Positions 7,500 to 22,400 of a stretch of DNA of 64,000 bases are shown here, in pieces. The translations under genes were made by a program, and so were the position numbers. The stretch is from the NCBI GenBank assembly GCA_012295275.1, contig CM022677.1, forward strand, positions 21,824,001 through 21,888,000. The letters run 5' to 3'. The DNA is from Chrysomallon squamiferum (Eukaryota; Animalia; Mollusca). Within the stretch, counting starts at the first letter, position 1; the number at the start of each line of letters is the position of its first letter. The notes under the pieces were generated by a model. That model was given only the letters and a program-made list of their open reading frames with translations, was not told the origin of the DNA and searched no databases.

Positions 7500-10400
7500 T
7501 CATGGCATTGTTCGCATTTGTGCCATCAACATTTTCATAAAATCTGAAATTTAAACATGATCAATATTAGTACCGACATTACTAAAATTCAAATATAATA
7601 ATGAAGTATGTATATATATATGTGTGTGTGTGTGTATGTGTGTGTGTGTATATAAGCGTGCATGCATGTATATATGTATATATCCAAACAATAAACACAG
7701 GCGAACACGCACCACTCAGAAATACACATGCACACATATACACACACATACACACGCATACACGCTATGCGTACACAAACACTCACACACCACCTACGTG
7801 CTCATGCACACACGCACGCACACGTGCACACGTCATCACGCACATACGCTCACCATAAGGAGAAGGTGGTTTTCTCTGTCGTGTCTGCTGCGCCGGTTTC
7901 TGCGTCTGCAGCGGCGACGAGGAACTGCGCTGTCTGGACGACGTTGCTGGCTGTTGCTGCTGACGTCTCTCCTGCTGCAGTTGTATGTTTTGCTGACGCT
8001 GACGCTGCTGTCGCTGACGTCGTTGCTGGAAGCGGTTCAGTTCCTGCTGTTCCGGTTGCTGCTGGAACTGATTATTCTGCGGTGGCTGTTGCTGCTGCGG
8101 TGGTGGAGGTGGCTGTTGCTGCTGCTGCTGTTGCTGCTGCTGCTGTTGCTGCTGCTGTGATGGTTGCTGCTGTCGTGGTGGTTGCGGAAACGGGTTCAGC
8201 TGTGGCTGCTGAAAGTCTCTCAGCTGTGATTGATGAAACTGATTCATCTGTTGCTGCTGCTGCTCTTGTCGTCGTTGCTGTTGCTGTTGTTGCTGCTGAT
8301 GTCGTCGTTGCTGGAAGTGATTGAGTTGTTGTTGTTGCGGTGATGGCTGCATCAGAGAGGCAAGAGATGGTGACGGGAACATGTTCATCTGGTTGTTGCT
8401 AGGCAACCGTTGTCCTTTGAAAAGCGTAGACAGGCCCAGCATTTGAGCTGTGAAAAGAAACAAGTAAATAACGATTGTCTCTTTTCTCTGTTTTCTCTTT
8501 CTCTCTCAAACAAAAACATTTTTAAATCCAATTTGTTCTGTTTACATAAAGATATTTGCTTGTATCAAATTTTTGTGTCAGTTTTTTTTCTTTGTCTGCC
8601 AAAGCTGCCAAAAAAAAAACAATCTAAAAATCTAATTTTTTCTCTTTCTCTGTCAAACGAAAAAATCTTTTTTTTCCCCTTTCTTTCTCTGATTAGATAT
8701 TTGCTTGTATCAGTTTTTAATATTTTGTTACGTAATTGCTCGAGTGTATATCAACTATAAACAAAATGATTAATTAACAAAAGCAGTAACAGTAAGACAA
8801 CGTAAGCAGCAACGACAACAACGACGCCTCAGTCGTTGATGACAGTTAAAATCTGATTTGCAAAAATATTCAATAAGTTACAGTTTCAATGCGGTCAATT
8901 TGTTGATTTTTCAAACAATATTATTATTATTATTATTATCTCCCTTTATTATCATGTTTTGGAATTCGAACACATAAACTAATATAATATGTTAATATTA
9001 TTCAGTGCATGCATAGATTAGTGTTTTGGGGTGTATGTATGTATGTAGGTATGCGTGTATGTTTATATGTATGTTTGTACGTATGCATGTATGTGTGTAT
9101 AGATGAATGTTTTTCGAAATAAATATTCTCTTTTCTTATGTACGACTGTACACAGACCATATTCGGTAATGTTCAGTCTGTTTGTATGTGTATGAGGATG
9201 TGAATGTGTGTATGTGTGTACTGTGTGTGTGTTTGTTTGTCTGTGTGTATTTTTGTCTGTGTGTATATGTATGTATGTATGTATGTATGTATACAGCCAT
9301 TGTTGTATACACGAATTGTTGTGAAACAAAGAAAGTGAAACAGTAGTAAATGAAAGCTGTGTTAATTGCAGCCAATCAGCAATGTGCTTACATACAGCCT
9401 TGGAAGCTTTTAATTATAAATGTAGCCAATCAGATGCAACAATAGACACGGAAATAAAGCAGTACAGCCATTCAGCAAAAAACTGAGAAACAAAGTATAT
9501 TTTTTTTGTTATTATTATTATTATTATTATTATTATTATTATTATTATTATTATTATTATTATACAACAATTCAAAAGTGTGCGTATATATATAACTGAC
9601 ATTGTTATTTTCATCATTAATTTTTGGTCAATTTTTCAATCATGATAATTGTAAATAATTTATTTATTTGCATTAAAGTGTTATTTCATTATTATTATTA
9701 TTATTATTATTATTATTATTATTAATGCATTTATTATAAAAAATTTGCTATCAGTTTAGCAAAATTAAACTGCATATAAAGAAGCCGTGCAGAAGTTCAT
9801 TTTATAGCGACACCTACCGGGAGGAACTACGTCACTAACTTGTTGTTCGAGTGCCTGCAAAGTAGCTTGTTGAGAAGGACAACGTATAAATTAACATAAA
9901 TATAAATAAATTAACATAAGTTATTATAATTAAATTAAGATAAAAAGAATTCATTACCATAAAAAGTTAATAATTTAAAATGCAAATAGTTGATAATAGG
10001 AAAAATAAGTAAATAAATGAAGAAAAGATGTATAAATAAATTAATAAATAATATCAATAATAAATAAATTAATAATTAACGAAGATAAAGAAAACTGAAG
10101 GAAGGAAGGAAGGAAGGAAGGAAGGAAGGAAGGAAGGAAGGAAGGAATAAATTAATCAAGGAAGAAGTAAATGAATGAATGATACAAAGTATTTTGAATC
10201 AAGAAACGTGTTTCATTCTTTTGTTACTTCGAAATGTGTAAAAGAGTAATAAAAATTTAAAGTTTGTTTGAAAATCAAAAGTTCAGTTGAAAACTGAAAC
10301 TCAGAAACCATCAAACTTCATTAAGAATAAAGATAATTATTTCTATTAAGAAGAAGAAGAAGAAGAAGACAAAAAATAATAATAGTAATAACATTATGAA

Positions 10401-19400: not shown

Positions 19401-22400
19401 CAAGAAGAACAATAAGAACAATAAGAATAAGAAGAACAAGGAGAAGGAGAAGAACAAGAACAAGAAGAACAAGAACAAGAAGAACAAGAAGAACAAGAAG
19501 AACAAGAACACAAGAACAAGAAGAAAAAGAAGAACAAAAAGAACAAGAAGAAATAAAATAAAATAAAACAAATGAATGAATGCAAACCATGAAATGTCGT
19601 TAACATTTGATCCATATTGCCACCGCCCGAAAATAAACCACCTGAAATTAAGAGAAATAAAAAAACAATAAATGAATGAATGAAAGAGTTAGAAAGAAGG
19701 ATGGATGAATTGAGAGACACGAAGAGAGATATACTGATAGACAGGAAAACGTAACAAATATATGTGTGTGTGTATAATTAGATACGTGTGAATATGCTTA
19801 TGTTACTGTGTGTATTTACATGTATGTGTGCGTGTGTGTGTGTGTGTGTGTGTTTGTGTTTACGTATGTTTGTTTGTGCATACATATATAGATATATATC
19901 ACTACCCATGCCAATAATGTATATGTACATTTCTATTCTAGATCTATGTTTATGTAATTGGTATTTGTTTGTGTATGGGTGTCTGTATGTATACGTTTAG
20001 TTTTCTGTCACTAGATACTAAAACCATTTTAAACTCACCTGGTTTATTGTTCGCACTACCAAAGCCTCCACGGCTGTTGGGCGCGGCAGTTTGGGCGTGG
20101 GAGCCACTCCTACCCGACAACGCGTCTTTGTTCACCGGAGCGAAGAAATGCTGCGGTATCGCGTGCTGCTTGCCGAACGTCCACGTCGAGTGAGGACGAG
20201 GCTGGCTAGACTTGCTCAAGTCAGGAACGGGCTTCCTCAGAGAATCGAGTCTAGAGAGGCCATCGGACTGTTTCCGCGGAGGCGTTGGAGGAGATCTCGG
20301 AAGTGAGGCGGAAAAGAACGAGGACGCAGAGTTTTTGTTGTCTGGTGGTGAAGACTTGATTGACGTCTGAAGTCTCTGAGGTCGAGAGTTAGCTGCTGGT
20401 CTGTTTGACTGAGGAACTGCAGGTCTGTTTGACTGAGGAACTGCAGGTCTGTTTGACTGTGGAACTGTAGGTCTGTTTGACTGAGGAACTGTAGGTCTGT
20501 TTGGCTGAGGAACTGCAGGTCTGTTTGACTGAGGAACTGCAGGTCTGTTTGACTGTGGAGCTGTAGGTCTGTTTGACTGAGGAACTGTAGGTCTGTTTGA
20601 CTGAGGAACTGCAGGTCTGTTTGACTGAGGAACTGCAGGTCTGTTTGACTGTGGAACTGCAGGTCTGTTTGACTGAGGAACTGCAGGTCTGTTTGACTGA
20701 GGAACTGCAGGTCTGTTTGACTGCGGAACTGCAGGTCTGTTTGACTGAGGAACTGCAGGTCTGTTTGACTGAGGAACTGCAGGTCTGTTTGACTGTGGAA
20801 CTGCAGGTCTGTTTGACTGAGGAACTGCAGGTCTGTTTGACTGAGGAGAGGCAGGGACGGATGTCTTGGTAGATGTGGATGTCGCTGCTGATAACTGCCT
20901 GTTTGATGCTGCTATTTGTGCTGGATGTCGTAGATTTGACGCTGCTGCTGGTGCTGTAGCTGCTGCACTTGGCTTTGATGCTGCTGACACAATTGGCGCT
21001 GTTGCCGGTCTCGTAGCTGCAGGAGGTTTTGCTGCTGCTGCTGCTGCAATTGCAGTCCTTCCGGCCAACCTAGCAGACGACGCTGCCGATGTTGATGACG
21101 ACCTCCGCCCTGGTGTTGATGCTGGTTGCGGTAACGAAGGCGATGCTGCAGTTTTTCCTGACATTACAACGGCTGCTGTTGCTGCTGGTGGTGGAGCATG
21201 TACAACAGGAGGCTGTAGTAGCCTCGGACGTGATGATGTTGCCATGGGGACGCCATGACGACGACCTTCGCCCTGTGTGTTGATGACTGGTTGCGGTAAC
21301 GATGGCGCTTGCTGCAGTTTTTCCTGAAATGAAAACAAACGGCTGCTGTTGCTGCTGGTGGCAGGGCTATGTATAGAATAAATCTTAAACAGGTGGATAT
21401 AGGTAGTCTAGGTGTGATGATGTTCGCGGTATGTATGTATGGACGCCATGACGTCGGTATGGATTTATCCATGCTTGTTGTGACATTGACATACAGGGTT
21501 ATGTATAAAATAAATATTATGTTATGTCTATATATATATATATATATATGTTCGTACGTATGTATGTATATTTGAAAACATGTATCTATGTATGTATGTA
21601 TTTACAGAGCTTGTGTGTGTCCTTGAGTATACAGGGCTATGTATAAAATAAATATTAAGTTGCGTCTATGGATATATGTATGTCGTATATTTTATTTATG
21701 TATGTATGTATGTATGTATGTATGTATGTAGGGCTGTGTATAAAATAAATATTGTTATGTCTATGGATATAATGTAATGAATGTATGTATGTATGTAAGT
21801 ATGTTAGTATGTATATTTATATATATGTGTGTGTTTGCTACTACTGCTGTAACTACTACTACTACTACTGCAACTGGTATTATTATTATTATTACTGTTG
21901 TTATTATTATTCTTGTTGTAGTTATTGTTGTTGTTATTGTTGTTGTTGTTGTTATTGTTATTCTTGTTGTTGGTGCTGTTGTTTTTTTATTCTTGTTGTT
22001 GTTGTTGTTGTTATTGTTATTCTTGTTGTTGTTATTGTTATCCTTATTGTTGTTGTTGTTGTTACCAGTTTTTTCTATCAATGTGGGCGATGGTTGTAGC
22101 TTAGACAAATTAGACGCCTGCTGATTGGTCAGTGGCTGTTCTGGGGGCGGAGTCAGAGGCAGAGGCTGGTACGTGGGAGGAGCTGGCTGCCTCTCGTTAA
22201 CAGACGGATCTGGCTGCTGATTGGTCGGCTCTCTGTTTCTCACTGACAGGTGACCGGCCGGTGTTGCGCGTGACGGCTCCGGGGTGTGGGGCAGAGCGAA
22301 GTCCGGCAGCTCGGGCAGCACGGGGGCGGTTGTTGCTTAGCAACGGACGGATGCGACGGTCGGCGGAAGTTGAGGAAGTGCGGCGGGTCTTTCGGCTCGC

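What the first reader, a model, noticed from the sequence alone, without database searches (positions are those of the whole stretch)
9818..19641. Twelve consecutive small symmetric phase-1 exons: a possible combinatorial splicing cassette
Seen: exon lengths are 54, 72, 42, 183, 45, 45, 9, 24, 24, 30, 33 and 48 nt. Each is a multiple of 3, phase 1-1, stop-free, and an island of unique sequence between microsatellite introns. Any subset could be skipped without a frameshift. Established: schistosome micro-exon genes use this layout to vary secreted proteins. Inference: this gene may have an analogous diversification region. I searched specifically for phase-1 exons, so some selection bias is possible.
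Basis: partly seen in the sequence, partly recalled or inferred. Interest (0 to 1): 0.78.

Follow-up and report, generated by a model that had tools for sequence, protein, structure and literature searches.

The report
Vent-snail shell protein's small-exon chain
A real chain of small, frame-preserving exons encodes the conserved tail of what is likely a vent-snail shell matrix protein, and the evidence points to likely occasional single-exon skipping rather than the parasite-style combinatorial shuffling first proposed.

Summary
The exon run is real. 11 of the 12 exons translate colinearly, one split codon apart, into the Gigantopelta aegis ortholog (RefSeq XP_041356047-50). RNA contigs show the junctions E8>E9 and E20>E21 directly, and E9>E10 and E19>E20 by loose ends. 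Phase-1 symmetry is not special to the cluster: all 19 readable acceptors of the gene are phase 1, as expected for a secreted Sushi-module gene. The gene model reproduces the Sushi coordinates of Csqv2.0_7163_4.62, a mantle-specific, Peltospiridae-restricted protein in the scaly-foot snail shell proteome, whose G. aegis ortholog is also in shell. Skipping is seen only as single events: E10 in 1 of 4 RefSeq isoforms, and probably E17 in one RNA contig. The small exons are more conserved (65%) than the flanking low-complexity exons (29%), and predicted helices cross exon borders. It is not a schistosome micro-exon gene; combinatorial splicing is neither shown nor excluded.

The parts
29472..29505 (-). 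E1 coding part: ATG and first 34 nt (signal peptide start, by eye); sets phase 1
25811..25834 (-). E2, 24-nt phase-1 exon within the predicted signal peptide
   Evidence: weak alignment to ortholog (p=0.13)
25439..25507 (-). E3, 69-nt phase-1 exon; its peptide matches the G. aegis N-terminus by eye
24471..25022 (-). E4, 552-nt S/T/P-rich exon
   Evidence: 28% identity to ortholog
23823..23990 (-). E5, Sushi/CCP domain 1 (class 1-1 exon)
   Evidence: Pfam PF00084 E=1.7e-5; 71% to ortholog
22978..23166 (-). E6, Sushi/CCP domain 2 (class 1-1 exon)
   Evidence: Pfam PF00084 E=2.4e-4; 76% to P0006
22066..22583 (-). E7, P/T/Q-rich exon; 518 nt as assembled, with a frame switch near 22337 (likely assembly error)
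20039..21322 (-). E8, large A/P/S-rich exon with a 24-nt x19 coding tandem repeat (20393-20847); 5' end garbled by a local duplication
   Evidence: joint to E9 in X1 and X2
19588..19641 (-). E9, 54 nt, weak donor that is nonetheless used; most variable cluster exon
   Evidence: joint E8>E9 and loose end into E10; differences
18467..18538 (-). E10, 72 nt, predicted helix; skipped in G. aegis RefSeq isoform X4
17564..17605 (-). E11, 42 nt
   Evidence: 11 of 13 residues identical to ortholog
16236..16418 (-). E12, 183 nt, predicted coil
   Evidence: 29 identities to ortholog, p=0.001
15516..15560 (-). E13, 45 nt
   Evidence: colinear, 6 of 14 identical
14771..14815 (-). E14, 45 nt, weak donor
   Evidence: 9 of 14 identical, p=0.001
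14213..14221 (-). E15, 9-nt microexon with the strongest acceptor score of the model and a strong donor
   Evidence: exact colinear slot 1015-1016
13550..13573 (-). E16, 24 nt; its end matches the letters just upstream of E19 in contig X1
12656..12679 (-). E17, 24 nt, conserved (5 of 7), present in all 4 G. aegis isoforms, likely skipped in contig X1
11704..11733 (-).
   Evidence: no ortholog slot; not upstream of E19 in X1
11051..11083 (-). E19, 33 nt
   Evidence: loose end of X1 holds it upstream of E20; p=0.001
9818..9865 (-). E20, 48 nt
   Evidence: joint E20>E21 in X1 and X2
7854..8447 (-). E21, Q/R-rich exon
7499..7543 (-). E22, 45 nt, holds the stop codon 1 nt before a 3'-UTR intron
   Evidence: p=0.004

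Best explanation
The run is a real chain of small phase-1 exons encoding the conserved C-terminal segment of a predicted secreted two-Sushi protein that is likely a peltospirid shell matrix protein, and it is likely spliced mostly as one chain with limited skipping of single exons (E10, E17). Shown: exon identity by orthology, four junctions in RNA contigs, uniform phase 1 across the gene, two Sushi domains. Inferred: (1) identity with the mantle-specific shell protein Csqv2.0_7163_4.62, from matching domain coordinates; (2) phase uniformity is the ordinary architecture of secreted class 1-1 modular genes with disordered linkers, which makes skipping frame-safe as a by-product; (3) the cluster encodes short helices in a disordered tail (E10; E14-E16; E17-E20) that likely mediate self-assembly or partner binding in the shell matrix, so skipping E10 removes a whole helix and skipping E17 removes the hinge between two helices, giving a few tuned isoforms rather than thousands.
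For: Ortholog P0006 at 76% in Sushi 2, named G. aegis XP_041356047-50. Colinearity of 11 of 12 exons. Joints E8>E9 and E20>E21 in RNA runs X1 and X2 and not in X3, whose contigs run through the introns; loose ends give E9>E10 and E19>E20. One 1134-nt X1 contig has 462 nt between E9 and E20 and ends in CATG just upstream of E19; only E16 among E11-E18 ends so. E10-E16 plus E19 give 453 nt, and the 9-nt gap equals the three extra residues the ortholog has between E13 and E14. RefSeq X4 lacks exactly E10. The model puts Sushi cysteines at 228-280 and 285-342 and the Pfam hit at 228-277; the supplement gives 228-280, 285-343 and 228-277 for Csqv2.0_7163_4.62. That protein is in the shell set, not the sclerite set, with mantle 53.7 against 2.5 or less in four other tissues, and phylostratum 11 = Peltospiridae. 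Its orthologue ctg723-3.0-1 is in the G. aegis shell set. 19 of 19 readable acceptors are phase 1 against 3 of 16 in the neighbouring gene. The ten small exons are 78/120 identical to the ortholog against 88/299 for E4 plus the 3' part of E8.
Against: The E17 skip rests on 4 letters plus a length sum that needs 9 nt I could not find as a canonical exon in the window; skipping one 45-nt exon instead fits the length exactly but not the CATG end. Contigs drop minor paths, so isoform diversity is undersampled. Organism A of runs X1-X3 differs from the window by about 2% in E8 and 4-5% in introns, so the E17 loss could be a fixed difference. The link to the shell proteome is by coordinates, not by sequence. 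The fold is single-sequence and weak (mean pLDDT 55, pTM 0.18), and the helices are no more amphipathic than shuffles. E9 differs from X3 at 6 of 54 nt, 5 of them non-synonymous, which runs against uniform conservation.
Confidence: 0.68

Rival explanations
1. MEG-like combinatorial cassette: the exons are skipped largely independently and produce a large isoform pool that varies the shell protein, for instance between mantle zones.
For: Every subset is frame-safe. Two different exons show signs of skipping in two lineages. E9 and E14 have weak donors. E9 carries an excess of substitutions over the 3' part of E8 (6/54 vs 8/352, Fisher p=0.005). Lymnaea shell genes are alternatively spliced (PMC6007483 passages).
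Against: 3 of 4 RefSeq isoforms hold the full chain and the fourth lacks one exon. Small exons are more conserved than their flanks. One predicted helix spans E14-E16 and another E17-E20. The E9 excess is not significant against the adjacent intron (p=0.21). The phase pattern covers the whole gene.
Confidence: 0.14
2. Fully constitutive chain: small symmetric exons are a relic of intron gain or exon duplication; the missing E17 is a fixed difference or contig artefact in organism A, and RefSeq X4 is splicing noise.
For: Only one contig path per run was seen. Organism A is not identical to the window. Runs of same-phase exons are common in disordered proteins without implying splicing (PMC3632108 passages).
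Against: E17 has canonical sites in the window and is kept in all 4 G. aegis isoforms, yet looks absent from a depth-45 contig. X4 removes exactly one exon that matches one predicted helix. Little sign of duplication among cluster exons: best pair p=0.003 among 45 pairs, not significant after correction.
Confidence: 0.15
3. Artefact of searching for phase-1 exons in microsatellite-rich introns.
For: About 2 chance candidates are expected in this span, and E18 behaves like one.
Against: 11 of 12 exons are colinear with a named ortholog and four junctions appear in RNA contigs.
Confidence: 0.02

Closest known systems
Csqv2.0_7163_4.62 (Chrysomallon squamiferum) / ctg723-3.0-1 and XP_041356047-50 (Gigantopelta aegis)
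   Same: Same Sushi spacing; RefSeq protein colinear with all exons but E18. Listed as unannotated shell-proteome proteins, mantle-specific, Peltospiridae-restricted (PMC11871041 supplement).
   Different: The main text has no hit for 'splicing'; the RefSeq names 'mucin-5AC-like' and 'FLO11-like' are automatic. The window adds a 24-nt x19 coding repeat not seen by eye in the G. aegis protein.
Sushi/CCP shell matrix proteins such as Pinctada margaritifera PUSP11/PUSP12 and PifCCP
   Same: Tandem Sushi domains in a shell protein; 35% over 124 aa to PUSP12 for the C. squamiferum protein. Function in biomineralization unknown (PMC11291548 passages).
   Different: No VWA, chitin-binding or laminin-G domain found (Pfam on 5 exons; PF00084 only for P0006). 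About 90% of the protein is low-complexity or lineage-specific; no homolog of the small-exon segment beyond G. aegis.
Schistosome micro-exon genes (MEGs) and the composite VAL-6
   Same: Run of small symmetric exons in a signal-peptide gene. VAL-6 likewise couples a known domain to a MEG-like stretch (PMC4350168 passages).
   Different: MEGs are mostly made of exons of 36 nt or less, are flatworm-restricted, evolve fast and face host immunity. Here such exons make 148 of about 4053 coding nt and the cluster is the conserved part.
Vertebrate disordered matrix genes built of same-phase exons (ameloblastin, amelogenin/SCPP; tropoelastin)
   Same: Secreted disordered matrix protein, consecutive symmetric exons, cassette splicing. 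Ameloblastin is named as an example in PMC3632108; the rest is recalled.
   Different: Unrelated sequence; SCPP introns are phase 0 (recalled). An analogy only.

Membership tests
Schistosome MEG | Most of the coding region in very small (36 nt or less) exons | tested here: not met
   148 of about 4053 nt; whole cluster 579 nt; definition
Schistosome MEG | Exons symmetric and skippable in frame | tested here: met
Schistosome MEG | Signal peptide, secreted | tested here: inconclusive
   Hydrophobic N-terminus by eye only, no predictor run; indirect support from the shell proteome
Schistosome MEG | Large pool of splice variants | tested here: inconclusive
   One skip in 1 of 4 RefSeq isoforms and one likely skip in a contig; contigs cannot show rare forms
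Schistosome MEG | Restricted to flatworms | tested here: not met
   Gastropod ortholog
Schistosome MEG | Accelerated protein evolution of the micro-exon part | tested here: not met
   65% vs 29% identity, small exons vs flanks; E9 is an exception; no formal dN/dS computed
Molluscan shell matrix protein (Sushi/CCP + low complexity) | Peptides found in shell matrix | tested here: met
   Indirect, by coordinate match: Csqv2.0_7163_4.62 scored in 5 of 5 shell samples, ctg723-3.0-1 in 3 of 3
Molluscan shell matrix protein (Sushi/CCP + low complexity) | Mantle-enriched expression | tested here: met
   53.7 in mantle vs 0.12-2.5 in four tissues, by the same indirect link
Molluscan shell matrix protein (Sushi/CCP + low complexity) | Demonstrated effect on mineral deposition | not testable with these tools
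   needs assay or knockdown
PifCCP / Pif-BMSP | VWA, chitin-binding and laminin-G domains | tested here: not met
   definition
Class 1-1 modular extracellular gene | Domain exons flanked by phase-1 introns; phase-1 intron at the signal peptide | tested here: met
   concept from PMC8001218 passages

The most novel reading that the evidence does not exclude
A vent-snail shell protein uses a micro-exon array (down to 9 nt) as a combinatorial switchboard of helical modules, plus a fast-changing E9, to lay down different isoforms in different mantle zones and shell layers: a MEG-like diversifier that evolved independently for biomineralization rather than immune evasion.
Probability: 0.14. Interest if true: 0.72.

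Novelty: new member of a known kind. Interest (0 to 1): 0.38.

Why it matters
It gives an exon-level model and a testable splicing question for a shell protein that is found in two vent snails but is so far listed only as unannotated. It shows that the part of this young protein under constraint is a chain of 9-72-nt exons that gene predictors can easily miss. If long reads showed zone-specific combinations, it would be a direct case of splicing-based diversification of a shell matrix protein. If not, it is a clean example of the known tie between secretion, disorder and phase-1 symmetry.

Tried and rejected
No whole genome is held for this window, so no genome-wide phase background or paralog search was possible. 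Word-indexed protein searches with Sushi 2 and the 3' part of E8 found nothing; the HMMER search did. The small-exon segment found only the G. aegis cluster among 636 candidates of 656-2090 aa and no usable Atlas hit. The Sushi region gave generic Sushi clusters below 0.9. None of the other 113 HMMER hits resembled the ortholog outside Sushi. Run X4 held none of the exons, which is no proof of absence. No canonical 9-nt exon was found in the E13-E14 intron. Other open candidates at 16741-16655 have no slot in the ortholog and were rejected. The idea that the helices are amphipathic or coiled-coil was not supported (2207, 3233 and 1018 of 5000 shuffles reached the observed moments). Origin of the cluster by exon duplication was not supported. 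The G. aegis shell protein ctg966-2.12-1, with a Sushi at 265-309, was rejected as the ortholog because it has HYR, EGF and TSP1 domains. Earlier scan findings: none by place or words. Literature searches for micro-exons in mollusc shell proteins: 2 papers, both on parasites; 0 papers; 467 papers with 2 of 3 terms; 0 of the 15 listed contain 'microexon'; 1 enamel paper. Listings only; subscription journals are not covered.
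Full report
Observation. With a rough splice matrix of my own, 11 of 14 sense-strand donors in 20038-8448 carry a symmetric phase-1-open exon, against 2 of 7 on the antisense strand and 5 in 30.2 kb of control strands. The signal is above chance, with room for about two false candidates.

The gene. It starts at ATG 29505 and has small 5' exons (34, 24, 69 nt) and a 552-nt S/T/P-rich exon. Two exons follow that are each one Sushi domain (Pfam PF00084), then two large low-complexity exons, the cluster, a Q/R-rich exon and a 45-nt exon holding the stop. 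All 19 acceptors that can be read cleanly are phase 1; E18 and the garbled E8 acceptor are left out of that count. In the upstream neighbour (Sin3-like by eye, label recalled) 3 of 16 are phase 1 (phases read by eye from the open frames). Phase-1 introns around extracellular modules and signal peptides, and runs of same-phase exons in disordered proteins, are known patterns (passages of PMC8001218, and PMC3632108). The cluster's symmetry is therefore a property of the whole gene.

Ortholog. HMMER with Sushi 2 gave 114 hits; one, P0006, matched at 76% in a single stretch. It is G. aegis XP_041356048, one of four RefSeq isoforms. Each window exon, aligned separately, falls in order on isoform X1, mostly one split-codon residue apart: E10 883-905, E11 907-919, E12 922-979, E13 981-993, E14 1000-1013, E15 1015-1016, E16 1018-1024, E17 1026-1032, E19 1034-1043, E20 1046-1059, E21 from 1061. 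E9 aligns weakly at 869-880. E18 has no slot. The ortholog has three extra residues between E13 and E14. The ten small exons are 78/120 identical, against 88/299 for E4 and the 3' part of E8 (I set the segment borders from the alignment, which favours the short ones somewhat). No other homolog of the segment was found, which is weak evidence of absence.

RNA. Four runs were offered, all as contigs. RNA runs X1 and X2 join E8 to E9 (397 nt skipped) and E20 to E21 (1370 nt skipped), both with GT-AG ends. X3 runs through the introns without joints; X4 holds nothing. X1's loose ends show E10 directly after E9, so the weak E9 donor is used, and E19 directly before E20. The four letters upstream of E19 are CATG, the end of E16 and not of E17 or E18, and no other donor after CATG lies between E16 and E19. 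E10-E16 plus E19 give 453 nt, and the missing 9 nt equal the ortholog's three extra residues. The best reading is that this contig lacks E17 and E18 and holds a 9-nt piece that the window does not show as a canonical exon. The rival sum (one 45-nt exon skipped, E17 and E18 kept) fits the length exactly but not the end letters. Organism A is close to, but not identical with, the window's source.

Splicing. RefSeq X4 lacks exactly the 24 residues of E10; X1-X3 hold the full chain, and differ elsewhere by 2 and 7 residues. That RefSeq isoforms rest on RNA-seq is my recall. E17 is in all four. So two single-exon events are seen, in two lineages, and no combination of events.

Function. The model places Sushi cysteines at 228-280 and 285-342 and the Pfam match at 228-277. 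In the supplement of PMC11871041, Csqv2.0_7163_4.62 has CCP 228-280 and 285-343 and Pfam 228-277. Its orthogroup partner ctg723-3.0-1 has the spacing of the RefSeq protein shifted by 15. The first is in sheet 4 (171 rows, matching the 168 shell proteins of the text) in 5 of 5 samples and not in the sclerite sheet. Its expression is mantle 53.7, oesophageal gland 2.5, gill 1.07, scale tissue 0.59 and foot 0.12, and its phylostratum is 11 (Peltospiridae). The second is in 3 of 3 G. aegis shell samples. The link is by coordinates, not sequence. Of this paper I read section 7, search passages and matching rows of supplementary file 3, which was cut when stored; file 4 could not be searched. Sushi domains recur in shell proteins with unknown role (passages of PMC11291548), and Lymnaea shell genes are alternatively spliced (passages of PMC6007483).

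Structure. A single-sequence AlphaFold2 model of the G. aegis segment is weak (pLDDT 55, pTM 0.18). It puts helices on E10, E11, E13, E14-E16 and E17-E20, with a break at the start of E17. If right, the smallest exons are parts of shared helices rather than free modules, and the two exons seen skipped are a whole helix and a hinge. The helices are not more amphipathic than shuffles.

Against my reading. Contigs and four RefSeq models undersample isoforms. E9 differs from X3 at 6 of 54 nt, all at first codon positions and 5 non-synonymous. That is more than in E8 (p=0.005) though not more than in the adjacent intron (p=0.21), so some diversification at the allele level is possible.

Comparison. 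MEGs are defined by a coding region made mostly of symmetric exons of 36 nt or less, secretion, flatworm range and fast evolution (passages of PMC4350168 and PMC8293314; the original MEG paper was not read). This gene meets symmetry and fails the coding share, range and evolution tests. It works more like vertebrate disordered matrix genes with same-phase cassette exons (largely recalled). My searches (listings only) showed no paper on micro-exon arrays in mollusc shell proteins.

Verdict. Real feature, 11 of 12 exons; likely shell matrix protein; limited cassette splicing likely; combinatorial diversification unproven (about 0.14). New member of a known kind, interest 0.38.

Noticed in passing
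window 19588-19641 (E9): All 6 differences to run X3 (4 shared with X1) fall on first codon positions and 5 change the residue; E8 and E21 differences are mostly synonymous or mixed.
   Followed up: partly
window 11876-12591: A 68-nt minisatellite (10.8 copies) starts about 65 nt downstream of the E17 donor and carries repeated AG/GT splice-like sites; it could bear on E17 skipping.
   Followed up: no
window 15050-15030: A short unique island between the (CT)n and (AAT)n/(TAC)n runs of the E13-E14 intron has no canonical splice sites as assembled; a low-confidence place for the missing 9-nt exon.
   Followed up: partly
window 22337 and 21640-21060: E7 switches frame in a C run (518 nt), and the region around the E8 acceptor holds a degenerate local duplication; both look like assembly errors.
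   Followed up: partly
window 20393-20847: Coding 24-nt tandem repeat, 19 copies at 95%, giving an 8-residue P/Q/S/N/R repeat not seen by eye in the G. aegis protein.
   Followed up: no
window 7499-7543 and about 6990: The stop codon lies 1 nt before a further intron in the 3' UTR; so close a junction would not trigger nonsense-mediated decay (rule recalled).
   Followed up: no
window 34380-48525, minus strand: Upstream neighbour with Sin3A-like exons (label by eye and recall, not scanned); mixed intron phases, used as control.
   Followed up: partly
window 44600-45480: About six partial tandem copies of one exon of the Sin3A-like gene with its acceptor; likely an assembly artefact, or a tandem exon duplication.
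   Followed up: no
P0006, P0115, P0116: G. aegis isoforms also differ by 2 residues in the signal-peptide region and by 7 residues mid-protein, so small in-frame variation is not confined to the cluster.
   Followed up: no
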